A DNA stretch of 64,000 bases from a virus (Duplodnaviria > Heunggongvirae > Uroviricota > Caudoviricetes): the IMG/VR virus record IMGVR_UViG_3300043449_002776, one strand, 5' to 3'. Below the pieces are notes generated by a model. That model was not told where the DNA came from. It made no database searches and saw nothing but the letters and a program-made list of their open reading frames with translations. Positions 8,491 to 50,226 of this stretch are shown here, in pieces (within the stretch, counting starts at the first letter, position 1; every line of letters starts with the position of its first letter). The translations under genes were made by a program, and so were the position numbers.

Positions 8491-9003
8491 ATGATCGAAG
8501 TAACAATAACAGATGAAATGTTGGATATTGCGAAGGAGAAAGCCGATAAGCTTGGTCAATTAAAAAATAGCATCACAAGAGGGGAAGGTAATGTAGCAGG
8601 CTTCCTTGGTGAATTGGCTGTTCTTTCAGTCATGGGCGGAGAATTGAAGGGAACAAGAGATTATGATATAGTTTTCGACAATGATGTTAAAGCTGATGTT
8701 AAGACCAAGCGATGTACTTCTCCCCCTCAAGAACATTTCGATTGCTCTATTAGTGATTACAACACGACTCAAAAATGTGATCGCTATATCTTTGTGAGAG
8801 TTCTTAAAGATTATAAGAAAGCTTGGATTTTAGGTTGGTATCCGAAAGAGGAATATTACACTGAAGCAACTTTTATCCAACAAGGTCAACTTGATCGTAG
8901 CAATAATTGGCGAGCAAAATGCGATTGCTGGAATATGCCTATTTCGAATCTTAAGAAAATAGAAGACTTTAAGCCGTCTGGTAACGATACTGAACATTCT
9001 TGA
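8491..9003 (+). CDS. hypothetical protein (possible PD-(D/E)xK-type nuclease fold)
   Basis: 170-aa ORF; D..D-x-K-like pattern DYDIVFDNDVKADVKTK; weak. Confidence 0.4.
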   Translation: MIEVTITDEMLDIAKEKADKLGQLKNSITRGEGNVAGFLGELAVLSVMGGELKGTRDYDIVFDNDVKADVKTKRCTSPPQEHFDCSISDYNTTQKCDRYIFVRVLKDYKKAWILGWYPKEEYYTEATFIQQGQLDRSNNWRAKCDCWNMPISNLKKIEDFKPSGNDTEHS

Positions 9004-13102: not shown

Positions 13103-14689
13103 ATGGCTAACAAGAATATTTTCAAGAATACCGGTGCAAGTGTTCCTGCAACCGATACCACAAACAATGCTGGTGGAAAGGCTTATCGCTTTGATAAGCG
13201 ACACTGCCTCGCACAAATTGCGGCGACAAACTGCTTCAACGGCACCTTCTATGCGAGTGCAGAGGACAATCTGAAGCTGGCTAAGGAAGCCGCTCTTGCT
13301 CTGCGAGACGATCCTGAATTCATCGCTAAGGTGGCGTTGTATGCCCGTGACAAGGCATACATGAAAGACATGCCTGCTTTTCTGACCGTGGTTTTGTCGG
13401 AAATCGACAAGCCGCTGTTCCGTAAGGTCTTCCGCAGGGTTGTAGACAACGGCAAGATGCTCCGTAATGTCATTCAGATGGCACGAAGCGGTGCTGTGAC
13501 TACCAAGAAGGCCAACATGTCGGCGGGAACTTGGCGTCATGCGATTCAGGAATGGTTCGATAGCCGAAACGCTGTTGCACTATTCAAGGCATCCATTGGC
13601 AATGATCCAAGCATGAGAGACATTCTCCGTATGGCTCGACCAAAGCCTAACTCCCCTGAAAAGGAGGCGTTGTTTGGTTATTTCATCGGCAAGGATGTGT
13701 CTGTAGATCGTCTGCCCGAGAACGTGCGTGCGTATGAGCTTTACAAGAAGGATAAGTCTGGACCTGTGCCAGATGTGGACTTCCGTATGCTCGACTCGTT
13801 GGGAATCGGTGATGCTGAATGGTCTCAGATCGCAGGGCGTGCTCCTTGGATGATGACTCGGATGAACCTGAATACGTTTGCTCGTCATAACGTATTCAAG
13901 GATTCAGGTCTTACCAAGGTTATTGCTGATCGTCTCAACAACAAGGAACTGATTGAGAAGGCTCGTGCTTTCCCATACCAGTTGTATGTTGCTTGGCGTG
14001 AGATCTCCAACAATAACGATATTCCGTCGTTGGTGAAGGAAGCGTTGCAGGACGCTATGGAAGCTGCCATTGAGAATGTGCCAGCCCTTCCGGGCGAAGG
14101 CTTCGTTTGCGTGGACATGTCCGGCTCTATGAGTAGTCCGATCACGGGCCATTCTGCTGGTCGCCACAGTTCGTCTGTAACCTGTGTTGAGGTTGCTGGC
14201 TTGATCGCTTCAGCGGTTTACCGTAAGAATCGTTCAGCACAGATTTACACCTTCGACAGTACGGCAACTTTGGTTAATCTCAATCCTAGAGATACTGTTT
14301 TGACGAACACTTCGAAGCTGAGCAAGGCCGGTGGCGGAACAAACATTTCTGCTCCTTTGCATGATCTCAACAGAAAAAATGCCAAGGGCGATTGGGTGTT
14401 CTATGTTTCAGACAATGAATCATGGATCGACTCTGGCTCCAGATACAGTTACTACGGTACTGGTCTGGCAGATGAGTGGAAGAAATTCAAGTCTCGTAAC
14501 CCGAAGGCTCGTTTGATTTGTTGCGACTTGACTCCAAGAAACAACAGTCAAATTAAGTGTCAGCCTGATGTTTTGCAGGTTGGTGGATTCAGCGATCAGG
14601 TTTTTGATGTGATTGCATCCTTCTTGGAGCATGGGCACGAATCTGATCACTGGGTCTCTGAGATTGAGAAAGTTGTCTTGCCAGATTAA
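13103..14689 (+). CDS. TROVE-domain (Ro60-like) protein with C-terminal von Willebrand A domain
   Basis: N-terminal TROVE-like sequence (KAYRFDKRHCLAQIAATNCFNGTFYASAEDN...), vWA MIDAS motif VCVDMSGSMSS. Confidence 0.7.
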   Translation: MANKNIFKNTGASVPATDTTNNAGGKAYRFDKRHCLAQIAATNCFNGTFYASAEDNLKLAKEAALALRDDPEFIAKVALYARDKAYMKDMPAFLTVVLSEIDKPLFRKVFRRVVDNGKMLRNVIQMARSGAVTTKKANMSAGTWRHAIQEWFDSRNAVALFKASIGNDPSMRDILRMARPKPNSPEKEALFGYFIGKDVSVDRLPENVRAYELYKKDKSGPVPDVDFRMLDSLGIGDAEWSQIAGRAPWMMTRMNLNTFARHNVFKDSGLTKVIADRLNNKELIEKARAFPYQLYVAWREISNNNDIPSLVKEALQDAMEAAIENVPALPGEGFVCVDMSGSMSSPITGHSAGRHSSSVTCVEVAGLIASAVYRKNRSAQIYTFDSTATLVNLNPRDTVLTNTSKLSKAGGGTNISAPLHDLNRKNAKGDWVFYVSDNESWIDSGSRYSYYGTGLADEWKKFKSRNPKARLICCDLTPRNNSQIKCQPDVLQVGGFSDQVFDVIASFLEHGHESDHWVSEIEKVVLPD

Positions 14690-14737: not shown

Positions 14738-16481
14738 AGCTTCTTCTAACACAAAGGGCATTTCCAATTGGAGTGCCCTTTAATCTTGCAAATTCTTCGA
14801 TGCTTAGTATATTTCTTTCTGCAAAAGAACCAATTCCACAATCGTATATGAACGTATTTTGATTTTTGTCAATTCTTTTTACAGTTTGAAGCACATGACA
14901 GCATAGTTTTGAACAACGCACAAAAACTTTTTCACCTTTTACAAATTTAGGCAAAACTCTTTTTGGGGCTTTGAATAGCGATTTCATAGAACCACCTCTT
15001 ATTTTTGCCCCTCCTTGCGAGGATACATTATTTATGCTTTGCAGTAGATGACTGCCAGAATTTTCAATTCCCCCAATCATAATTTCATTTTTTGCTATTG
15101 CATTGTAACTTTCTCCAGAAACAATTGCCCCTCCCGAAGTTGATTGCTCACTAATAAGGGATACATCAAGTGTGCCAATTAGCACTATTCCGCCTTGCAT
15201 AATTTCTGACTGTGAACTTTCGCTTATGTGGCTTCCAGACAGTAGTATGCCGCCACCAACAGATTCATCATATGCAAGCCCATATAGGCTTTCTCCTGCA
15301 ATAGTAGCCCCACCTGAAAATTCAGTTTGACTTACAGAAGTTATCTCTGCAAAGCCAGTAACTAAAATTCCCCCCTCTAGAAGCAGTTCTGTGTTCGAAA
15401 ATATAAACGACTCTCCACTTACAGAAACGCTAGCCACCATCATTTCATCATAGGTAAATGTAGCAGATGAAAATCCTACATTTACACCGCCGCTCATAGT
15501 GACTTCAGATACGACCTCGGGGTTTGCTGAAGAATTTGCTGACACTCCACCACTAGCAATTTCATCATAAGTTTGCGATGTTACTATCGCCAAACCGAAT
15601 AAAATATTTGCATTGTCAGTAGTTGTGCCATTTATGAATGCTGGATCGCTTGCACCACTGTCGGTGCCAGTTTTAAATGCAAATTCTCCAGTTGCTATTA
15701 TATTTGTCGTTGAGGTCGATCCAGTAGTGCTTGATTGCAATATTTGCGACCAACTAGTTGTTGTATTTAGCAAACCTGTAGTAGTTGTGTCAGATTCAGA
15801 TGCTATTGCTCGAATCCAAATGTGATCAAGAGCATTAGTTCCAGATACACTCATGCTTGCTAAAGCATTATTGGTTCCTGCTTCTTCTAGTATTCCGTCT
15901 ATAGTAACTTGTGAGGAAGTATTATTTTGAAATAGATGTCCAGTTATAGCCTTAGCTGTTTTGCTAGAACTCAATGATGCAGTAATTGTCGAGCCAGATA
16001 ATATATTAGTTGGTGCAACCAAATACCAAGCAGATACTGTTGCACCAGCATCACTTGCACCTCCGCCTTTTGTATACTCTCTTATTTTTGTTGCACTGTA
16101 TCCATCAATAGTAACACTTGAATGCAAGGTTGTGATAGCGTCTGATGTCGCATCATTATCTGATGCCAGAATTACAATCGCTATCTCGTTTGTATTTATT
16201 TCTGCGGTAGATGTAGTGCTTATTGTGCTGCTGCTCGTTTTATCATTGGCACTGACAAAACTTCCTAGATTGGAAAAATTTGGTTTTATTGCCACTAATC
16301 TACTGACTTGGCTGATTCTGGCTTGAGATGTATTTTGGAGAGCGGTCAATTTTGCGACCTGTCCAATTCGCACATCTGATGAAGCCTGCAAAGCAGTCAA
16401 TTTTGCAACTTGGCCAACTCTCACATCAGAATTAGCAGTCAAAGCTGTTAGTTTTGCTACTTGTGTAATTCTGTTAGTCAT
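14736..16481 (-). CDS. repeat-rich fibre/structural protein
   Basis: 581-aa ORF; N-terminal tandem QVAKLTALxxxSDVRxG repeats, then S/T-G-G beta-repeats related to the giant protein at 57887. Confidence 0.55.
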   Translation of the reverse strand: MTNRITQVAKLTALTANSDVRVGQVAKLTALQASSDVRIGQVAKLTALQNTSQARISQVSRLVAIKPNFSNLGSFVSANDKTSSSTISTTSTAEINTNEIAIVILASDNDATSDAITTLHSSVTIDGYSATKIREYTKGGGASDAGATVSAWYLVAPTNILSGSTITASLSSSKTAKAITGHLFQNNTSSQVTIDGILEEAGTNNALASMSVSGTNALDHIWIRAIASESDTTTTGLLNTTTSWSQILQSSTTGSTSTTNIIATGEFAFKTGTDSGASDPAFINGTTTDNANILFGLAIVTSQTYDEIASGGVSANSSANPEVVSEVTMSGGVNVGFSSATFTYDEMMVASVSVSGESFIFSNTELLLEGGILVTGFAEITSVSQTEFSGGATIAGESLYGLAYDESVGGGILLSGSHISESSQSEIMQGGIVLIGTLDVSLISEQSTSGGAIVSGESYNAIAKNEIMIGGIENSGSHLLQSINNVSSQGGAKIRGGSMKSLFKAPKRVLPKFVKGEKVFVRCSKLCCHVLQTVKRIDKNQNTFIYDCGIGSFAERNILSIEEFARLKGTPIGNALCVRRS

Positions 16482-17503
16482 TATGCTATCACTTTTTGTC
16501 CGATTTCAACTGCCTCTACTTGTGCTTGAGTCCAAGCTAAGCTGGTGTCTGGATTCGTTGAAAAAATATCCTGTATTTGGTATGCATATGTGTCAGAAAT
16601 AGCAACATTGGTGCCATCTTGTTCTGTAGAGCCACTTTTAACAACCGCACATATAGTTCGGCTTGTTGCATCGGTTTTTCTACAGTTTACATCTACCCCC
16701 ATAGCCACAATAGAACTTGCAGTTGATCCTAGCGTTGGAAACCCATAAAGATCTTTATGCCCAACAGTATTTGACTGCACATAAGTGGTGTCATCGTCTG
16801 GGTTGGTCTCATCTACAAGCAAATAATTATCGGTCGAATTCCCATCACTGCCTGTCCACGAAGAAGAGCTACCATTGGCATTAGGAAATGAAGTTATAAT
16901 TCTTGTGTCGCCTAAAAAATCTGAGCCAGATCCTACTTGTAAAATAAAGTCATCATAACTCACGTAAGTGCTAGTATCTGAATTTAATCTTAAAGAATTT
17001 GCGTATGCATTTGCACTGGCTTTTGTGTCTTGTCCAGTGGCCACAGTAATAGCAAGCTCTCCATTTATTTTTAGTTGACAACTATTTGCTGATATTGAAT
17101 CAGCAATCATCATTTTCCATTCAATCCAATTCCAAGTATTTGGCCTAAGCATAATGGTGCTAGTTCCATTGGTTAGTGCCGTTCCTCCTCTTGTTATAGA
17201 AACTGTGTAGTTGCCATTTATAAATAAGTCAGCTTGCTGAGTTGAGGCATCTACTAAAGAAAGCAAAGTGCAGCCACTACCTGAAATTGATGTAAGATTT
17301 AGTCCAAAAGAAACACAGAAGTATTGGTTGTTCACAAAAGTTTTTGTGATTCTATCGTTTGAATAAAGCTTAATACATGATCCGCTAATTCTACCAGTTG
17401 TGAAGGTTTGAAAAGTGCTCGATGTGACCCATTTATCGCTTATATTTGCAACTGTGTTATAGTGTTCGAATCCATCCATAAAAATTATATTTGCTGCTGG
17501 CAT
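16481..17503 (-). CDS. putative virion structural protein (paralog A)
   Basis: Internal start chosen so protein begins MPAANIIFMDGFE like its paralog; ConA/lectin-like beta-rich sequence. Confidence 0.55.
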   Translation of the reverse strand: MPAANIIFMDGFEHYNTVANISDKWVTSSTFQTFTTGRISGSCIKLYSNDRITKTFVNNQYFCVSFGLNLTSISGSGCTLLSLVDASTQQADLFINGNYTVSITRGGTALTNGTSTIMLRPNTWNWIEWKMMIADSISANSCQLKINGELAITVATGQDTKASANAYANSLRLNSDTSTYVSYDDFILQVGSGSDFLGDTRIITSFPNANGSSSSWTGSDGNSTDNYLLVDETNPDDDTTYVQSNTVGHKDLYGFPTLGSTASSIVAMGVDVNCRKTDATSRTICAVVKSGSTEQDGTNVAISDTYAYQIQDIFSTNPDTSLAWTQAQVEAVEIGQKVIA

Positions 17504-17517
17504 ACTATGCTCCTTAG

Positions 17518-18537
17518 TTATGATGACAATTTGTAGCCAAACTCTGAAGCTTGCAAACTTTCGCTTGTCCAACTTGAGCTTGTGTTTGGATCATTGATCA
17601 AAATAGTTTCTACATGTGTTTGGTATGTGTCTGATAGATATTTGTTTGATCCATCTTGTTCGGTGCCGCCGCTTTTTACTACAGAACAAATCGTTCTGGA
17701 GCCTGCATCTACTTTCTTTGAATTAATATCAATTTCAACTGCTGAAATTGTAGGGGTAGTCGTTTCTAATGCTGGGAAAGTGAATAAATCCTTTTCCCCC
17801 ACGGTATTGCTCTGAACATAAGTGCTATCACCATCATATACTTGTTCATCAACAAGCAAATAATTATCAGTCGAATTACCGTCACTGCCTAGCCAGTTAG
17901 AAGCACTTCCATTACCGGATGGAAAAGATGTCAAGATTCTTGTGTCCCCAATAAAATCAGAGCCTGCCCCAACTTGCAAGACAAAATCGTCAAATAAAGT
18001 TGAGACCCCATTGGATGCAGTTCTTAACGCCATTCTATTAGCATAAGCATTAGATGTTTGTTTTGTGTCTTCCCCGGTTGCTGCATTTATTATTGTTTCG
18101 TCATTTAATCTTACTTGACAACTATTTGCTGATATTGAATCAGCGATCATCATTTTCCACTCAAGCCAATACCACACCTTAGCTCTGATTGCTACAAGAC
18201 TTGTCCCATTAGTAAGAGCAGTTCCAGATCTTGTTATTGATAAAAAACCGCTAGAATTCATTCTTAGGTCTATTTGGGAACTTCCGTCGAAAGCAGTACA
18301 AAATGGACCTGTGCCGATAGAGGAAAAAAATACGCCGAAAGAAATACATAAAAATTGATTATTGGCAAAACTTCTGTAGGTATAATCAATTGAATTTGTC
18401 AAATTTAGGCTTTTGCCACCATACCTGCCATCTGTGAACGCCGCCCCTACGGAAGTAGTGTGCCATTTATTCGATAGGCTGTCTGGCGTGTTGTATGTTT
18501 CAAAACCATCCATGAATATAATATTAGCTGCTGGCAT
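17518..18537 (-). CDS. putative virion structural protein (paralog B)
   Basis: 339 aa beginning MPAANIIFMDGFE; clearly paralogous to 16481-17503. Confidence 0.55.
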   Translation of the reverse strand: MPAANIIFMDGFETYNTPDSLSNKWHTTSVGAAFTDGRYGGKSLNLTNSIDYTYRSFANNQFLCISFGVFFSSIGTGPFCTAFDGSSQIDLRMNSSGFLSITRSGTALTNGTSLVAIRAKVWYWLEWKMMIADSISANSCQVRLNDETIINAATGEDTKQTSNAYANRMALRTASNGVSTLFDDFVLQVGAGSDFIGDTRILTSFPSGNGSASNWLGSDGNSTDNYLLVDEQVYDGDSTYVQSNTVGEKDLFTFPALETTTPTISAVEIDINSKKVDAGSRTICSVVKSGGTEQDGSNKYLSDTYQTHVETILINDPNTSSSWTSESLQASEFGYKLSS

Positions 18538-18899: not shown

Positions 18900-19307
18900 A
18901 TGAGTACGACCATTCCCACAACCGCAAAGACGAAGTTCTTGAGCGAGCCCAAGTCGCTCAAGATCGCAGAAATTGGAGGCCACAACACGCACTTGGGTGT
19001 GCTGGTCTTGGATGAGCCTATGCAGCCGGGCAATGCTTGCCACTTCTACCAAATTGAAGTTGGGGGTGTTCCTGCTGCGACAATTCACTTTCAGCGAGGC
19101 CCTGTCAAGGAAGCTGGCGTGAATGGAATCAGTGCAGAAGCTTTGCTTGCAATTGTGGCCCACAGACTTGAAGGATTTCAGTCTGGCCAGTTTGCATGTG
19201 AAGAAAATGCAGAAGCCTTGAAGTGCGTTTATGGTGCGTTGGAACAGATGGCGAAACGCACGAAGGGACGTATCGAGAGGCAAGTCGAAGGATACAATCA
19301 ACTTTAA
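18900..19307 (+). CDS. hypothetical protein
   Basis: 135-aa ORF with AGGAAAG RBS; preferred over antisense 148-aa ORF. Confidence 0.5.
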   Translation: MSTTIPTTAKTKFLSEPKSLKIAEIGGHNTHLGVLVLDEPMQPGNACHFYQIEVGGVPAATIHFQRGPVKEAGVNGISAEALLAIVAHRLEGFQSGQFACEENAEALKCVYGALEQMAKRTKGRIERQVEGYNQL

Positions 19308-19334: not shown

Positions 19335-19363
19335 TTGACCTCACTCTAATTCATTCGTATCAT
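19335..19363 (+). promoter_or_regulatory. sigma-70-like promoter (TTGACC-17-TATCAT) upstream of tRNA pair
   Basis: Exact spacing; shares extended upstream ATTnAGTTGAyC with promoter at 18676. Confidence 0.55.
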
Positions 19364-19686
19364 GTAAGTGTTGCGAGTGAAAACTTGTAACAAGTTGAAC
19401 AGATAGCTTAGTCAGTCCTGTCAAAATTGAATTGAACTCTTGGTTGCAAAATTAAGAGTTCGGTTTAATGAGCGGGGTAAGCAGATCGAAAGATCGGTTT
19501 ACAAAGCGTTACCAAGAAGCCGCCCATCTGCGATATGATGATCAATAAAAGCATCTTGGTAAATACGATGGTGCAATTCCATCTCTGTTCATTTAGCCAC
19601 TACGATTAGCAATCGTGCGAGCAGCCCTTAAATTTGCTTAGGGAATAACGTGGCAAGGACAACTGAAAGTCGTGATGTTGTCCAAC

Positions 19687-19812
19687 TTGGGCAGGTAGCT
19701 CAGTGGTGTTTCCAACAGTAATGTTGGAAACTTCGGCGGGATGCAAGTTCAGTCGTACAGAGCATTCTCCTGAAAAGGAGAAGGGTCGCTGGTTCGAGTC
19801 CAGCCCTGCCCA
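19687..19812 (+). tRNA. tRNA-Phe (anticodon GAA) with about 52-nt insertion in the D-loop
   Basis: Perfect 7-bp acceptor GGGCAGG/CCTGCCC, D-stem GCTC...GAGC split by insertion, anticodon loop CTGAAAA, T-arm GCTGG TTCGAGT CCAGC. Confidence 0.45.
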
Positions 19813-19889
19813 CTTGGCGGAATGACGTTGTGGTTTACATCAAAAGTTGTTTGAAGAACAAACTACAACAACCTTTGTCCGCCAAATAC

Positions 19890-19985
19890 GCCGAATAGTT
19901 TAAGGGCAAAACACTCGGGAAGGTTATCGAGGCAACTCGGTGGACGCCGGGGGAATTGGAGGTTCGAATCCTTCATTCGGCACTA
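19890..19985 (+). tRNA. tRNA, long (96 nt), isotype undetermined
   Basis: Acceptor GCCGAAT/ATTCGGC, T-arm GGAGG TTCGAAT CCTTC; interior contains extra hairpin CGAG GCAA CTCG. Confidence 0.4.
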
Positions 19986-20048
19986 AAGGAATGACGAGCG
20001 GGTTTACATCTAAATACCGCAAAACTCGTTCAACAACTTGTCCTTTTT

Positions 20049-20081
20049 AAAAAAGACCAGCCTCACGGCTGGTCTTTTTTG
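20049..20081. terminator. bidirectional rho-independent terminator
   Basis: AAAAAGACCAGCC TCAC GGCTGGTCTTTTTT. Confidence 0.75.
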
Positions 20082-20082
20082 T

Positions 20083-32082: not shown

Positions 32083-32120
32083 CTTGCCGAAATGCTAGAA
32101 GGGATTACATCTTTTCCGCC

Positions 32121-32197
32121 AAACTTGGGAAAGTGGTGTAGTTGATGCACACCGTCTGCATAAGACGGAGGGATGGGTTTGACTCCCATAAACTTGT
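32121..32197 (+). tRNA. tRNA-like element (Met CAT-type anticodon arm) without pairing acceptor stem; flanked by AAACTTG direct repeat; preceded by conserved 22-nt motif
   Basis: D-arm GTGT..GCAC, anticodon stem CCGTC/GACGG loop TGCATAA, T-arm ATGGG TTTGACT CCCAT, but 5' GGGAAAG cannot pair with 3' AAACTTG. Confidence 0.3.
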
Positions 32198-32226
32198 TCT
32201 CTTCGCCTTTTGTTCGGCAAATTATG

Positions 32227-32298
32227 GTGTCCATAGTGTAGTGGCTCGCACGTCTGCTTGTGAGGCAGAAAGTACCGGTTCAATCCCGGTTGGACACC
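32227..32298 (+). tRNA. tRNA-His (GTG) with encoded G-1
   Basis: G-1 plus acceptor GTGTCCA/TGGACAC with C73; loop TTGTGAG. Confidence 0.8.
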
Positions 32299-32375
32299 CT
32301 TGAGAGAATGCTAGTTGGGATTACATCTTTTTGGTAGAAAAACATCTCAACAATTTTTTTGTCTCTCATTTTTAT

Positions 32376-32492
32376 GGTGGCTGTGATGTAATGGGCCTCT
32401 TAAGTCAAAGTGCGTAGCTTTGTCGGTAAGTTGGACGGAAAGCATCAGATACTGTGACTATCTGAGTGTAGGTTCGAATCCTACCAGCCTCC
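32376..32492 (+). tRNA. second tRNA-His (GTG)-like gene interrupted by about 45-nt insertion within the D-loop
   Basis: G-1 + acceptor GTGGCTG / CAGCCTC + C73; D-stem ATG...CAT separated by insertion; anticodon stem AGATA/TATCT loop CTGTGAC; T-arm GTAGG TTCGAAT CCTAC. Confidence 0.4.
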
Positions 32493-33856: not shown

Positions 33857-33954
33857 TTCTTTTTATGTCTTATTCAAAAGTAAAAAATTGGCGACAAAAT
33901 ACAAAAAACTTTTAGTTGAATCTTTAGGCGGAAAATGCAATAGATAAGGATTAC

Positions 33955-34001
33955 ATCTTTTCATCAAAGAGAGGCCGTGGGTTCGAATCCCACCCCCACA
34001 A
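33955..34001 (+). tRNA. 5'-truncated tRNA-Met(CAT)-type 3' portion (pseudogene or split gene) immediately after conserved motif
   Basis: ATCTT TTCATCA AAGAG + V + GTGGG TTCGAAT CCCAC + CCCCACA; no matching 5' acceptor strand within 100 nt upstream. Confidence 0.3.
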
Positions 34002-34058
34002 CTCAGTAAATTTGATATAGTGTTCGAATTCCAGTAAGATAAGTTGAGGAGCAAAGAC

Positions 34059-34436: not shown

Positions 34437-34541
34437 GCGGAAGATGCTCATGGGAGCTTTTCTCTTTCACTTTTTGTTTCTTAAGCACTTAAGAAAATGC
34501 AGATTGGGATTACATCGTTGGTTCGATTCCAATCTTCCGCT
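34437..34541 (+). tRNA. tRNA-like gene with about 60-nt insertion containing the conserved motif in place of the anticodon arm
   Basis: Acceptor GCGGAAG ... CTTCCGC pair perfectly; D-stem GCTC/GAGC; T-arm GTTGG TTCGATT CCAAT directly follows GGGATTACATC. Confidence 0.35.
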
Positions 34542-34976: not shown

Positions 34977-35107
34977 TTCGACGTAGCTCAGTGGTAGAGC
35001 ACCTAAAAATAGTCTTTTCACTACTTGTCTGCGAATTAGCAGAATGATAGAAAGGATTACATCGCATTCGGAGCGGGTGGTCGTTGGTTCGAATCCAACC
35101 GTCGATA
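34977..35107 (+). tRNA. tRNA-Arg (TCG) interrupted by a conserved 59-nt insertion between position 26 and the anticodon stem
   Basis: 5' part TTCGACG TA GCTC AGTGGTA GAGC A; insertion 35002-35060 ending in GAATGATAGAAAGGATTAC; 3' part ATCGC ATTCGGA GCGGG + V + GTTGG TTCGAAT CCAAC + CGTCGAT; removing insertion gives a 72-nt cloverleaf. Confidence 0.45.
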
Positions 35108-35153: not shown

Positions 35154-35283
35154 CTCGGCGTAGCTTAATGGCTAAAGCACTAAAAATAGTCTTTTCAATC
35201 TTTGTCTGCGAATTTGCAGAATGTCAGAAAGGATTACATCACCTGTTAAGTGAGGGATGTTGGTTCGAATCCAGCCGCCGAGG
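35154..35283 (+). tRNA. tRNA-Asn (GTT) interrupted by the same conserved 58-nt insertion at position 26/27
   Basis: Perfect 7-bp acceptor CTCGGCG/CGCCGAG; insertion 35180-35237 about 90% identical to that in 34977-35107; anticodon arm ATCAC CTGTTAA GTGAG follows motif. Confidence 0.45.
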
Positions 35284-38560: not shown

Positions 38561-38718
38561 TTTTCACAAGTAAAATGTGTATATAAGATTGCATTTAAAA
38601 CTTGTGAGAATGCAGACTGGATTACATCTAATTTTATCTTAGTGATTTCCTGCGAAATCAAGTCTTGTCGTTATTTGTCTCACATCTTTTTGCTTTTTGA
38701 ATTGACAAATTTTCGAAT

Positions 38719-49956: not shown

Positions 49957-50226
49957 GGGTCATTAGCTCAATGGTTAGAGCAACGGACTTCAATAGGAGT
50001 GCTTAGAGGGAAACCTCTAATGTAGAACCTCTCAAATTCGGTGAACGCTTAACTGCCAATACCGAGCCAAGCCTGTTGATCAGGAAGGTGTAGAGACTTG
50101 ACGGGAGGCACCTAAAACCACAAGGTTATGGTGAAGGTAAAGTCCAGACCACAAACTGCAAGGGTAACGAAAGTTATAGTGGTAAAGTTAATCCGTAGGT
50201 TGTAGGTTCGAGTCCTACATGGCCCA
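49957..50226 (+). tRNA. tRNA (probably Lys, TTT) interrupted by about 197-nt group-I-like intron (49991-50187) in the anticodon loop
   Basis: 5' exon GGGTCAT TA GCTC AATGGTTA GAGC A ACGGA CTT; 3' exon TTAA TCCGT AGGTT GTAGG TTCGAGT CCTAC ATGGCCC; exon ends in T and intron ends in G as for group I; intron has R/S-like elements GTAGAGACTTGA and AAGTTATAGTGG. Confidence 0.5.

What the first reader, a model, noticed from the sequence alone, without database searches (positions are those of the whole stretch)
19687..19812. tRNA-Phe(GAA) carrying a 52-nt insertion inside the D-loop; repeated post-tRNA elements
Acceptor, anticodon (CTGAAAA) and T arms are canonical. The D-stem halves (GCTC and GAGC) are separated by AGTGGT + 52 nt containing a clean hairpin (GTTTCCAAC AGTAAT GTTGGAAAC). 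Each of the two tRNAs in this pair is followed by a GGAATGACG-N5-GGTTTACATC...CAACAAC-TTGTCC element: 19841-19872 after tRNA-Phe, enclosed by an inverted repeat, and 19982-20045 after the second tRNA, just before the terminator. Together with the second His gene at 32376-32492 (D-loop insertion) this indicates a family of non-canonical tRNA insertions in this phage.
Basis: seen in the sequence. Interest (0 to 1): 0.6.

Follow-up and report, generated by a model that had tools for sequence, protein, structure and literature searches.

The report
Anticodon-less tRNA mimics beside Y RNAs
The supposed phenylalanine tRNA is a tRNA-shaped RNA with no anticodon loop and two extra hairpins at its elbow, transcribed in a string with Y RNAs, the small RNAs that partner the Ro60 protein this phage also encodes; it cannot decode, and no such RNA turned up in the papers I could search.

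Summary
The cloverleaf at 19689-19812 is real. It has a 7/7 acceptor stem, a D stem spanning a 58-nt D loop, and a T arm. Its fold is far more stable than shuffles (z -5.6), and an ortholog plus 13 paralog-like copies from related phages show compensatory changes in all four stems.

It is not tRNA-Phe. "GAA" sits in a GAAA tetraloop closing a 7-bp stem. The loop-closing pair covaries (U:A to A:U), 10 of 15 family members carry GAAA on 5-7-bp stems, and none has a 7-nt loop with U33. The insert is two hairpins capped by GUAA and GCAA. The second "tRNA" (19890-19982) also has one long GNRA-capped arm in place of an anticodon arm.

The post-tRNA elements (19815-19884, 19984-20047) are YrlB-type Y RNAs. 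They share GAAUG-N7-GGWUUACAUC...UUGUC with the Rfam YrlB consensus, and 13 of 16 pairs covary. A Ro60/Rsr gene lies at 13103-14689, and in five of the relatives whose DNA continues past rsr (two more show only the first tRNA-like copy before the contig ends) the same array follows rsr directly.

Everything lies in one promoter-to-terminator unit (19335-20081). Function is inferred: non-decoding tRNA mimics that punctuate and accompany Y RNAs.

The parts
13103..14689 (+). rsr: Ro60/Rsr ortholog (TROVE + vWA), the presumed protein partner of the Y RNA modules
   Evidence: Pfam vWA_Ro60 6.6e-13 and TROVE 3.4e-12. 41% identical to the Myxococcus phage Mx1 TROVE protein. Homologs are named '60 kDa SS-A/Ro ribonucleoprotein' by JGI.
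19335..19363 (+). sigma-70-like promoter of the ncRNA unit (TTGACC-17-TATCAT)
   Evidence: 10 of 12 consensus matches. The same TTGACT...TATCAT is kept in ortholog L125. It is a consensus match only.
19397..19591 (+). tRNA-like 0: a 195-nt cloverleaf with a 94-nt D loop (two hairpins, GCAA and GAAA loops) and a 54-nt arm in place of the anticodon arm
   Evidence: Against L125, the acceptor changes GAACAGA to GGACAGA with its partner, and the D stem changes GCTT/AAGC to GCTC/GAGC; both are compensatory.
19657..19683 (+). conserved hairpin GGACAAC-TGAAAGTCGTGAT-GTTGTCC
   Evidence: L125 has GAGCAAC/GTTGCTC, two compensatory changes, with an identical 13-nt loop.
19689..19812 (+). tRNA-like 1, the reported 'tRNA-Phe': acceptor 19689-95/19805-11, D stem 19698-701/19760-63, T arm 19788-19804, discriminator A19812
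   Evidence: MFE equals this cloverleaf, z -5.6. In the 15-member family alignment 15 of 21 pairs have double-sided changes and 0 of 500 shuffles reach the observed values.
19708..19731 (+). H1: 10-bp hairpin with a GUAA tetraloop, inserted in the D loop after G18-G19
   Evidence: L125 keeps the GUAA loop, with two compensatory and two disrupted pairs.
19734..19755 (+). H2: CGGC-G-GGAU-GCAA-GUUC-A-GUCG, the second D-loop hairpin with a GNRA loop
   Evidence: L125 has GGAC-GAAA-GUUC (U.G becomes C-G and the loop stays GNRA). H2 carries a GNRA loop in 12 of 15 family members.
19765..19782 (+). 7-bp stem with a GAAA tetraloop (19772-19775) in the place of the anticodon arm
   Evidence: L125 has TTGTCCA-GAAA-TGGATAA; the loop-closing pair changes U:A to A:U. 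All 5 outer pairs covary across the family.
19815..19884 (+). Y-A: YrlB-type Y RNA module. P1 is 19815-21 with 19878-84, GAAUG starts at 19820, GGUUUACAUC is at 19832-41.
   Evidence: Model R2, built without window sequences, scores 66.2 bits, E 1.8e-17. In the consensus structure 13 of 16 pairs covary.
19890..19982 (+). tRNA-like 2: acceptor, normal D arm and T arm, with one long irregular hairpin capped by GCAA replacing the anticodon and variable arms
   Evidence: RNAalifold on 5 orthologs; the apical loop varies GCAA/GUAA/GAAA. ARAGORN reports 'tRNA-???'. Rfam tRNA 34.3 bits.
19984..20047 (+). Y-B: second YrlB-type Y RNA module (GGUUUACAUC at 20001-20010)
   Evidence: Model R2, 55.5 bits, E 3e-14.
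20048..20081 (+). intrinsic terminator (15-bp stem followed by a T run)

Best explanation
19689-19812 encodes a 124-nt tRNA-shaped non-coding RNA that cannot decode. It keeps what makes a tRNA an L: a 7-bp acceptor stem, U8, A14, the G15:C48 Levitt pair, G18-G19, a 4-bp D stem, the T arm with UUCGA, and discriminator A. The anticodon arm is replaced by a stem closed by a GAAA tetraloop. The variable pocket of the D loop (position 20, at the elbow) carries two extra hairpins with GNRA loops.

It is the second of three such tRNA mimics in one roughly 700-nt transcription unit (promoter 19335-19363, terminator 20048-20081). That unit also holds two YrlB-type Y RNAs, each starting 2 nt (CU) after a mimic's discriminator base. 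The unit belongs to the phage's Ro60/Rsr system: in relatives it follows rsr directly.

Inferred mechanism. The mimics are recognised like pre-tRNAs. RNase P cuts at their 5' ends. An RNase Z-type cut after the discriminator, followed by CCA addition, occurs as for the phage's real CCA-less tRNAs, which carry the same CUUG trailer. This dices the transcript and gives the Y RNAs defined ends. The released, very stable mimics then probably act as the tRNA-like effector part of the Rsr-Y RNA particle. That role is played in bacteria by the tRNA-like domain built into YrlA; here it is supplied as a separate RNA.

Shown: structure, conservation, non-decoder status, Y RNA identity, and linkage to rsr. 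Inferred: processing, Rsr binding, and the role of the mimics.
For: Structure. The MFE is the cloverleaf plus H1, H2 and the GAAA-capped stem, z -5.6.

Ortholog L125 (neighbouring protein 80% identical). There are compensatory changes in the acceptor (C:G to U:A), the T stem (C:G to U:A) and the capped stem (U:A to A:U at the loop-closing pair). H2 changes U.G to C-G, and its loop GCAA to GAAA.

Family. There are 15 copies across 7 sources (window, L125, L134, L135, L136, L138, L139), all with the insert at the same D-loop position. 99.7% of cells are paired, 15 of 21 pairs show double-sided change, and 0 of 500 shuffles reach these values. The slid controls give 40-51% paired. The Levitt pair covaries: G15:C48 in 13 copies, A15:U48 in 2. 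Ten of 15 have a GAAA loop and none has a 7-nt loop with U33. H2 has a GNRA loop in 12 of 15.

Y RNAs. The Rfam YrlB consensus contains GaAUGCUgGcCgGGAUUACAUc...UUUGuC, the same motifs. 13 of 16 pairs covary. A model built from relatives alone finds 4 modules in the window, and another model finds a YrlA-like RNA right after tRNA-Ile in phage Mx1.

Rsr. Pfam hits. The array lies downstream of rsr, or of rsr plus a 135-aa ORF, in L125, L134, L135, L136 and L139; L137 and L138 break off after the first tRNA-like copy.

Punctuation. In the upstream contexts printed and in the Mx1 sequence, nearly all closed modules lie 2-4 nt after a tRNA or mimic discriminator (17 of 18 by my reading). None of 30 tRNA or tRNA-like genes in the window encodes CCA, and 19 have a CU-N trailer.

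Precedent. M. smegmatis YrlA has a 7-bp acceptor stem, is cut by RNase P and receives CCA in vivo (PMC4201824).
Against: There are no expression, end-mapping or binding data. The promoter is only a consensus match.

The family was collected with a scan that demanded perfect acceptor and T stems, and the D and capped stems were parsed by pairing. The percentage paired is therefore partly built in; only the variety of pair types is independent evidence.

tRNA-like 0 is followed by hairpins rather than a Y RNA, so punctuation cannot be the mimics' only role.

Two hairpins at the elbow might hinder RNase P, RNase Z or the CCA enzyme, all of which read the elbow (my own knowledge).

D-loop-expanded cloverleaves, 43 in all and many with capped anticodon stems, occur in IMG/VR contigs with no Rsr gene or Y module within the fetched flanks. 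The mimics may therefore have a function independent of Rsr.

Y-A and Y-B themselves do not reach even E = 10 against Rfam YrlB; only the third module does, at 39 bits against a gathering score of 97.
Confidence: 0.7

Rival explanations
1. It is a working tRNA-Phe(GAA) whose D-loop insert is either tolerated in the mature tRNA or removed as an intron.
For: The cloverleaf is intact and GAA is the Phe anticodon. No canonical tRNA-Phe is found in the window. Archaeal tRNAs do carry D-loop introns.
Against: The arm is 7 bp plus a 4-nt loop, and the best alternative is an 8-nt loop. In L125 the would-be U33 is A and its partner changes to keep the pair. Paralog-like copies have arms of 14-20 nt in total, mostly with GAAA. 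The core is no closer to tRNA-Phe than to Pro, Met or Ala tRNAs. There is no group I intron signal at this site. No helix other than the D stem spans the insert boundaries in the predicted fold, so no bulge-helix-bulge motif is evident. Removing the insert would still leave no anticodon loop.
Confidence: 0.03
2. The mimics are only processing signals (tRNA punctuation) that let RNase P and RNase Z release the Y RNAs; once cut off they have no function of their own.
For: Y modules begin 2 nt after the discriminator of mimics and also of real tRNAs (Val, His; Ile in Mx1). The trailers are the same as those of real tRNAs.
Against: A bare processing signal does not need two conserved GNRA-capped hairpins at a fixed D-loop position, nor a capped stem maintained by compensatory change in 15 copies. 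tRNA-like 0 and several copies in L134 and L139 are not followed by a Y module. Similar mimics occur without Y RNAs in other phages.
Confidence: 0.15
3. They are decoys or sponges for host factors that act on the tRNA body or the CCA end. Candidates are tRNA-targeting defence toxins, nucleotidyltransferases and modification enzymes. On this view they act independently of Rsr.
For: The class is widespread in large phage contigs without Rsr or Y RNA nearby, often with encoded CCA. The fold keeps the acceptor/T-arm half and the elbow but discards the anticodon.
Against: In this lineage the mimics are tightly and repeatedly linked to rsr and the Y RNAs. No toxin or partner has been identified. Anticodon nucleases, the best known tRNA-directed defences, could not be decoyed by an RNA with no anticodon loop.
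Confidence: 0.1
4. It is a decayed remnant: a 5' tRNA fragment duplicated in front of a degenerate tRNA, for example by an integration event. Rfam's 19738-19812 alignment suggests this reading.
For: Rfam aligns an inner 5' half (GGGATGC AA GTTC AGTCGTACA GAGC). Bacterial genomes do contain fragment-plus-tRNA duplications of this kind that fit the same search pattern.
Against: The inner acceptor pairs only 4 of 7 and does not covary, whereas the outer one pairs 7 of 7 and does. The inner segment forms hairpin H2, whose changes in L125 preserve pairing and the GNRA loop. Family members in GC-rich relatives have inserts with no resemblance to a D arm.
Confidence: 0.02

Closest known systems
YrlA and YrlB, the bacterial Y RNAs bound by Rsr (Salmonella, M. 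smegmatis; Chen et al. 2014, PMC4201824; Rfam RF02553 and RF02565)
   Same: They are encoded next to rsr on the same strand, several per locus, and processed from one precursor. The 5' motif GNCGAAN0-1G is here G-R-GAAUG, followed by YUAY (here UUAC within GGWUUACAUC). The 5' and 3' ends pair. A tRNA mimic with T arm, D arm, acceptor stem and a covarying Levitt pair belongs to the system. M. smegmatis YrlA has a 7-bp acceptor stem and is cut by RNase P and CCA-tailed.
   Different: In YrlA the mimic is a domain inside the Y RNA, and the Rsr-binding stem takes the place of the anticodon stem. Here the mimics are separate cloverleaves with free acceptor ends, a GNRA-capped stem and two extra D-loop hairpins. 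The Rsr-type module is a separate hairpin 2 nt downstream. The units are repeated in arrays. Only one module reaches a significant Rfam YrlB score, and it is below the gathering threshold.
Phage Ro60 with phage-encoded Y RNA-like RNAs (Thermus phage phiLo Yrl1/Yrl2, PMC12135203; mycobacteriophages, CcrColossus and Bacillus phage G in Chen et al. 2014)
   Same: A phage carries both Ro60 and Y-like RNAs next to the gene. The RNAs have a CGAA/GAA motif in an internal loop between a closing stem and a distal stem.
   Different: The passages I read from these papers (term searches, not the full texts) mention no tRNA-like cloverleaves interleaved with the Y RNAs, no D-loop hairpins and no tRNA-Y fusions.
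Archaeal tRNA genes with non-canonical introns in the D loop
   Same: A large insertion sits inside the D loop of an otherwise normal cloverleaf; the same search pattern recovers them.
   Different: The archaeal genes keep a canonical 7-nt anticodon loop. By my own knowledge their introns are removed at bulge-helix-bulge motifs by a splicing endonuclease that bacteria lack. Here the anticodon loop is gone and the insert is a pair of tetraloop hairpins under selection.
tRNA-linked release of other small RNAs (mitochondrial tRNA punctuation, MALAT1-mascRNA, murine gammaherpesvirus tRNA-miRNA units); from my own knowledge, not tested here
   Same: A tRNA or tRNA-like fold placed directly against another RNA so that RNase P or RNase Z defines that RNA's ends.
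   Different: Those are eukaryotic or organellar systems. Here the cargo is a Y RNA, the setting is a phage, and the processing is only inferred.

Membership tests
Decoding tRNA (tRNA-Phe) | Cloverleaf with a 7-bp acceptor stem, D stem, T arm and conserved tertiary positions | tested here: met
   U8, A14, G15:C48, GG, UUCGA and A73 are all present.
Decoding tRNA (tRNA-Phe) | 5-bp anticodon stem with a 7-nt loop, U33 and a purine at 37 | tested here: not met
   The arm is 7 bp plus GAAA. The loop-closing pair covaries (U:A to A:U in L125). None of 15 family members has a 7-nt loop with U33.
Decoding tRNA (tRNA-Phe) | D loop of normal size (about 7-11 nt); recognised by tRNA finders | tested here: not met
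   The D loop is 58 nt. ARAGORN makes no call. Rfam aligns only an alternative 75-nt reading at 30.7 bits with three mismatched acceptor pairs.
Decoding tRNA (tRNA-Phe) | Aminoacylation with Phe and use on the ribosome | not testable with these tools
   Needs charging assays or tRNA sequencing.
YrlB-type Y RNA (post-tRNA elements) | Sequence and structure match to Rfam RF02565 at the gathering score | tested here: not met
   The best module (32296-32373) scores 39.1 bits against a gathering score of 97, E 2.9e-7 in a 111-nt search. Y-A and Y-B give no YrlB hit at E <= 10. The Rfam model is built on enterobacterial sequences.
YrlB-type Y RNA (post-tRNA elements) | 5' Rsr-recognition motif GNCGAAN0-1G, then YUAY; 5' and 3' ends paired | tested here: met
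   G-R-GAAUG (a variant: the base before GAA is G or A, not C). UUAC lies inside GGWUUACAUC and is invariant. P1 is 7 bp and covaries. The motif string is identical to the YrlB consensus GAAUG-N7-GGAUUACAUC...UUGUC (PMC4201824).
YrlB-type Y RNA (post-tRNA elements) | Encoded within about 4 kb of rsr on the same strand | tested here: met
   Within 0.3-1.8 kb downstream of rsr in L125, L134, L135, L136 and L139. In the window it is on the same strand but 5.1 kb away, because three tail-fibre-like genes lie between.
YrlB-type Y RNA (post-tRNA elements) | Bound by Rsr | not testable with these tools
   Needs Rsr immunoprecipitation or gel-shift assays.
YrlA-type tRNA mimic | T arm, D arm and acceptor-like stem with tRNA tertiary pairs, including a covarying Levitt pair | tested here: met
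   G15:C48 in 13 copies and A15:U48 in 2 (L135_b, L138_a). Stems covary.
YrlA-type tRNA mimic | The mimic is a domain of the same RNA as the Rsr-binding stem, which replaces the anticodon stem | tested here: not met
   tRNA-like 1 has its own capped stem and no GAAUG/UUGUC motif; the Rsr-type module is a separate hairpin 2 nt downstream. Other RNAs in the window (34437-34541, 35154-35283) do carry the motif hairpin inside a cloverleaf.
Intron-containing tRNA (group I or bulge-helix-bulge) | Group I core, or a bulge-helix-bulge motif at the insert boundaries | tested here: not met
   There is no Intron_gpI hit here, although one is found at 49981-50162. The insert is 52 nt. The predicted fold shows two independent hairpins and no helix joining the insert boundaries other than the D stem, but I ran no explicit bulge-helix-bulge search.

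The most novel reading that the evidence does not exclude
Large phages encode a class, not described in the papers I could search, of anticodon-less tRNA mimics with an enlarged elbow: one or two tetraloop-capped hairpins inserted at D-loop position 20, and a capped stem instead of an anticodon arm. The window's family (at least 15 copies in 7 sources) and at least 43 cloverleaves with 34-62-nt D loops in IMG/VR contigs would be members. On this reading they are not processing by-products but effectors. They would engage host proteins that read the acceptor/T-arm half or the elbow of tRNA, such as processing and repair enzymes or tRNA-directed defence toxins. In this lineage they would have been coupled to Ro60/Rsr as a split, trans-acting version of the YrlA tRNA-like domain.
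Probability: 0.25. Interest if true: 0.8.

Novelty: new variant of a known kind. Interest (0 to 1): 0.6.

Why it matters
Ro60 and its Y RNAs are conserved from bacteria to humans, yet what the tRNA-like part of bacterial Y RNAs does is still unknown. Here the parts are separated by nature. The Rsr-binding module and the tRNA mimic are distinct RNAs, repeated in arrays, in a group of large phages. Each could therefore be deleted or pulled down on its own.

The arrangement also suggests a simple route for making Y RNAs with exact ends, namely tRNA-type processing.

For annotation, genes like this one are either missed (ARAGORN) or mis-called as tRNAs with odd anticodons. In phage Mx1 a Y RNA is annotated as a protein. 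Counts of phage tRNA repertoires, and claims of suppressor or quadruplet-decoding tRNAs, need to exclude such mimics.

The pattern search further suggests that D-loop-expanded, capped-anticodon cloverleaves are common in phage metagenomes and unstudied.

Tried and rejected
1. blastn of 19400-20300 against GenBank phages gave no match.

2. IMG/VR scan for the T-arm/acceptor 22-mer returned only unrelated tRNAs.

3. IMG/VR scan for AATG-N7-GGATTACATC returned 120 single, apparently chance hits, with no multi-copy locus.

4. Exact D-loop string GTTCAGTCGTACAGAGC: none in IMG/VR.

5. Neighbouring protein 20896-22041 has no relatives in IMG/VR. Homologs P0004 and P0006 of the 246-aa neighbour lie in phages where the ncRNA array is not beside that gene.

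6. Frameshift-suppressor idea (8-nt anticodon loops in both 'tRNAs'): rejected, because the extra bases pair and covary, and the second RNA's 'AGGU' lies in an internal loop of a long hairpin.

7. Rfam's 19738-19812 reading: rejected (see rival 4).

8. MAFFT alignment of full-length copies (A4) put the D-stem 3' strand out of register. I therefore counted pairs on trimmed, ungapped cores (A1). I did not build a covariance model of the mimic, since it would mostly re-find ordinary tRNAs.

9. Pfam on 20 ORFs found no RtcB, RNA ligase or CCA-adding enzyme among those tested.

10. Looking up the window's own Rsr returned only short Logan contigs and no habitat information.

11. Six literature searches found no description of D-loop-expanded, anticodon-less phage tRNA mimics. 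The held library is incomplete.
Full report
**1. What is in the sequence**

- Acceptor stem GGGCAGG (19689-19695) with CCTGCCC (19805-19811), 7 of 7 paired, discriminator A19812.
- U8-A9, then D stem GCTC (19698-19701) with GAGC (19760-19763).
- Variable loop GGGTC.
- T arm GCTGG-TTCGAGT-CCAGC (19788-19804).
- A 58-nt D loop (AGTGGT plus 52 nt).

Neither tRNA finder sees it this way. ARAGORN calls nothing here. Rfam's tRNA model aligns a different 75-nt reading, 19738-19812, at 30.7 bits (threshold 29), with three non-standard acceptor pairs and an insertion in the anticodon loop.

The anticodon arm is not canonical. TTCTCCT-GAAA-AGGAGAA (19765-19782) is a 7-bp stem with a 4-nt loop. The only 5-bp reading leaves an 8-nt loop.

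- H1, 19708-19731: 10 bp with a GUAA loop.
- H2, 19734-19755: CGGC-G-GGAU-GCAA-GUUC-A-GUCG.
- The GAAA-capped stem.

The energy is -56.8 kcal/mol against -36.5 +/- 3.6 for shuffles (z -5.6, 0 of 200 shuffles as good). The segment that Rfam took for a second 5' half is H2.

**2. Relatives**

There is no DNA match in GenBank phages. Several exact-pattern scans of IMG/VR and JGI metagenomes returned only chance hits.

Protein anchors worked. The 246-aa gene downstream (20083-20823, minus strand) has graded homologs. The contig of the 80%-identical one, L125, holds the whole ncRNA region directly downstream of a TROVE gene.

ORF 13103-14689 of the window is itself a Ro60/Rsr ortholog: Pfam vWA_Ro60 6.6e-13 and TROVE 3.4e-12, and 41% identity to the TROVE protein of Myxococcus phage Mx1. 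Rsr homologs at 75-85% identity led to loci L134-L139. In these an array of tRNA-like genes and repeated elements starts 0.1-1 kb after rsr, or after rsr plus a conserved 135-aa ORF.

**3. The 'tRNA-Phe' is an anticodon-less tRNA mimic**

Against L125, the 124-nt RNA differs at 20 positions, and the changes respect the fold:
- Acceptor position 4:69 changes C:G to U:A.
- A T-stem pair changes C:G to U:A.
- A capped-stem pair changes C:G to G:U.
- The pair that closes the GAAA loop changes U:A to A:U. If this were an anticodon loop, that change would put A at position 33.
- In H2, U.G becomes C-G and the loop changes GCAA to GAAA.
- The inner pseudo-acceptor does not covary with the 3' strand.

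A scan for T arm plus acceptor stem, followed by parsing, gave 15 copies in the window and six loci. All have the same plan:
- A 7-bp acceptor stem, U-A/G, and D stem GYTY/GARC.
- A D loop that begins A-R-(0-3 nt)-GG and then carries 30-55 extra nt.
- Base 26, then a 5-7-bp stem with a short loop: GAAA in 10 of 15, and 5-7 nt in the rest, none with U33.
- A 5-nt variable loop, a T arm, and a discriminator (A in 13, G in 2).
- No encoded CCA.

On the ungapped cores (alignment A1), 99.7% of cells pair. Fifteen of 21 pairs show changes on both sides, and no shuffle out of 500 reaches the observed values. Sliding the partners drops pairing to 40-51%. The D stem that spans the insert varies C:G (11), U:A (3) and U:G (1). 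All five outer pairs of the capped stem covary.

Caveat: the scan required perfect acceptor and T stems, and the parse chose D and capped stems by pairing. The percentage paired is therefore partly by construction. The diversity of pair types is the real evidence.

The tertiary Levitt pair also covaries: G15:C48 in 13 copies and A15:U48 in 2. This is the signature Chen et al. used for YrlA (PMC4201824).

The D-loop insert folds into two hairpins in 12 of 15 copies. H2 is always GNRA-capped (GCAA or GAAA). In most of the twelve, H1 is capped by a GNRA or UNCG-type loop. The three AT-rich L136 copies have one long hairpin instead.

The core sequence is no closer to tRNA-Phe than to other tRNAs.

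**4. The second 'tRNA' and a third mimic**

The RNA at 19890-19982 has four orthologs. RNAalifold gives an acceptor stem, a normal D arm, a T arm, and one long irregular hairpin in place of the anticodon and variable arms. Its apical loop varies GCAA/GUAA/GAAA, so it stays GNRA. ARAGORN's four-base anticodon 'aggt' lies in an internal loop of that hairpin.

Upstream, 19397-19591 is a 195-nt cloverleaf with a 94-nt D loop (hairpins with GCAA and GAAA loops) and a 54-nt arm. Its acceptor and D stems show compensatory changes against L125.

A relaxed scan finds only three cloverleaves with long D loops in the whole window: these two and 32377-32492. The third is the 'second His'. It keeps a canonical AGATA-CTGTGAC-TATCT arm, and its insert lacks the two-hairpin GNRA design. 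I would not lump it with the others without more data.

**5. The post-tRNA elements are YrlB-type Y RNAs**

GGWTTACATC occurs 12 times in the window (0.18 expected), 11 of them on the plus strand and nearly all in tRNA regions. The full motif is closing stem-AAUG-N7-GGWUUACAUC...UUGU-closing stem.

Fifteen modules from the window and relatives give a consensus with:
- a 7-bp P1;
- an internal loop (AAUG.. opposite ..UUGU);
- a 9-bp P2, in which GGUU pairs with AACU;
- an apical loop starting UACAUC.

Thirteen of 16 pairs have double-sided changes.

Rfam's YrlB model matches the module at 32296-32373 with 39.1 bits (E 2.9e-7 in a 111-nt search; gathering score 97). The printed consensus, GcGaAUGCUgGcCgGGAUUACAUc...UUUGuCgcgC, contains the same strings.

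Chen et al. describe GNCGAAN0-1G as the likely Rsr-recognition motif, followed by a conserved YUAY. Here these are G-R-GAAUG and UUAC.

A covariance model built only from L134-L139 finds four modules in the window with filters off: 19815-19884 (66.2 bits), 32301-32368 (56.7), 19984-20047 (55.5) and 38603-38684 (29.9). It contains a T arm, so it is YrlA-like, and the GenBank record annotates it as a hypothetical protein.

**6. Organisation and inferred mechanism**

A promoter-like site (TTGACC-17-TATCAT, 19335-19363, conserved in L125) and a strong terminator (20048-20081) bracket the following, in order:
- tRNA-like 0;
- a conserved hairpin, 19657-19683;
- tRNA-like 1;
- Y-A;
- tRNA-like 2;
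- Y-B.

By my reading of the upstream contexts and the Mx1 sequence, 17 of 18 closed Y modules lie 2-4 nt after the discriminator of a mimic or of a real tRNA (Val and His in the window, Ile in Mx1), with CU as the usual spacer. The next cloverleaf starts 2-15 nt after the module in the arrays I read.

None of the 30 tRNA or tRNA-like genes in the window encodes CCA, and 19 carry a CU-N trailer. The mimic's CUUG trailer is the same as that of tRNA-Glu, Val and His.

For real tRNAs, a cut after the discriminator and CCA addition are obligatory. The same cut would create the 5' end of the adjoining Y RNA, and RNase P at the next cloverleaf would trim its 3' side.

I therefore propose that the cloverleaves punctuate the transcript. 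That U-rich trailers favour RNase Z is my own recollection, not tested here.

Punctuation cannot be the mimics' only role. The two GNRA-capped D-loop hairpins and the capped stem are maintained by selection, and some mimics have no Y RNA after them.

The most economical reading is that the mimics supply in trans what the tRNA-like domain of YrlA supplies in cis. M. smegmatis YrlA, with its 7-bp acceptor stem, RNase P cleavage and CCA tail, is a natural intermediate. None of the processing or binding steps is shown.

**7. How wide is the class?**

The pattern TAGCTCAG-N30-60-GAGC-N22-28-GGTTCRAATCC found 79 IMG/VR loci. Forty-three parse as full cloverleaves with D loops of 34-62 nt:
- Many have capped stems, for example CCTGCC-TCAC-GGCAGG in nine contigs, and UUCG or GAAA caps in others.
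- One 239-kb contig (L153) has two tandem copies with the same H1/H2 design.
- Some keep 7-nt loops.

None has an Rsr gene or a Y module within the fetched flanks.

In GTDB genomes the same pattern mostly recovers two other things: archaeal tRNAs with D-loop introns and normal anticodon loops, and bacterial duplications of a tRNA fragment in front of a full tRNA.

Capped, D-loop-expanded mimics therefore look like a phage feature, and the coupling to Rsr looks specific to this lineage.

Literature searches found the Y RNA work, phage Ro60 (phiLo) and a jumbo-phage survey that mentions TROVE proteins 'with a tRNA-like partner'. None describes such mimics.

**8. Verdict**

- The label 'tRNA-Phe' is wrong.
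- The repeated elements are Y RNAs of a known kind.
- The mimics are a new variant within the known theme of Y RNA-associated tRNA mimicry.
- Function remains inferred.

Noticed in passing
window 49957-50226 (+): A tRNA gene (perfect acceptor and T arm, 270 nt) interrupted by a group I intron; Rfam Intron_gpI scores 50.6 bits at 49981-50162. I did not work out the anticodon.
   Followed up: partly
window 32377-32492 (+): His-like cloverleaf with G-1, one U.U in the acceptor stem, a 52-nt D loop and a canonical GTG anticodon arm. Its insert folds weakly (-9.9 kcal/mol) and lacks the two GNRA hairpins, so it may be a different phenomenon from the mimics. It sits right after Y module 32301-32368.
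   Followed up: partly
window 34437-34541, 35000-35102, 35154-35283, 33936-34010 (+): The Y RNA motif appears in permuted form (UUGUC-hairpin-GAAUG-N7-GGAUUACAUC) inside cloverleaf scaffolds. At 34437-34541 it replaces the anticodon arm. At 35154-35283 it sits between the D arm and an arm with a GTT anticodon-like loop (Rfam tRNA 40.9 bits). These look like circularly permuted YrlA: free acceptor ends with a closed Rsr-type stem.
   Followed up: partly
window 32086-32226 (+): Directly after tRNA-Val comes CUUG-CCGAAAUG-N7-GGAUUACAUC, followed by tRNA-like sequence up to tRNA-His. This is possibly a YrlA-like RNA. The closed-module models do not detect it.
   Followed up: no
L004 (Myxococcus phage Mx1, OR576727.2) 8607-8710: A YrlA-like Y RNA (CAGUGAAUG-N8-GACUACAUC, T arm AGCGG-UUCGAUU-CCGCA, UUUUGUCACUG) lies directly after tRNA-Ile. 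It overlaps a CDS annotated as a hypothetical protein (WNM70101.1).
   Followed up: partly
L135 10066-12699 and L139 7444-9608: In two relatives the ncRNA array downstream of rsr is followed by a large protein with a major-vault-protein shoulder domain (PF11978). Having a TROVE protein, small RNAs and an MVP-like protein side by side recalls eukaryotic vault components.
   Followed up: no
L134 9197-9322 and L139 6313-6438: One subtype of the mimic family has a 5-bp stem with a 7-nt loop, GAUUAAA or GACUAAA (A at position 33), and discriminator G. The middle triplets UUA and CUA would match stop codons. This is probably coincidence, but I did not test it.
   Followed up: no
IMG/VR loci L142-L220: 43 cloverleaves with 34-62-nt D loops, many with capped anticodon stems and encoded CCA, in contigs up to about 400 kb. 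None has Rsr or a Y module nearby. L153 has two tandem copies with the same two-hairpin design. This class was not described in any paper my searches returned.
   Followed up: partly
window 23113-24713 (+): Adjacent JAB-domain (PF14464) and ThiF (PF00899) genes; the same pair recurs next to the 246-aa gene in relatives L126-L130 and in L136. This is a ubiquitin-like conjugation or deconjugation pair in a phage.
   Followed up: no
window 18900-19307 (+); L135 8682-9089: A conserved 135-aa ORF with no Pfam match lies between rsr (or the tail-fibre insertion) and the ncRNA promoter. It is absent in L125.
   Followed up: no
L134 8594-8800, L137 5597-5800, L139 5609-5810: The 200 nt just downstream of rsr, before the array promoter, are conserved between GC-rich relatives and contain paired segments (GAAAGACGG...CCGGUC...). 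This may be another structured RNA or a terminator/attenuator.
   Followed up: no
window 16481-18537 (-): Two paralogous genes (363 and 339 aa, same N-terminal MPAANIIFMDGFE) plus a 581-aa repeat-rich gene, all on the opposite strand, separate rsr from its ncRNA array in this phage only. They look like an inserted tail-fibre or receptor-binding cassette.
   Followed up: no
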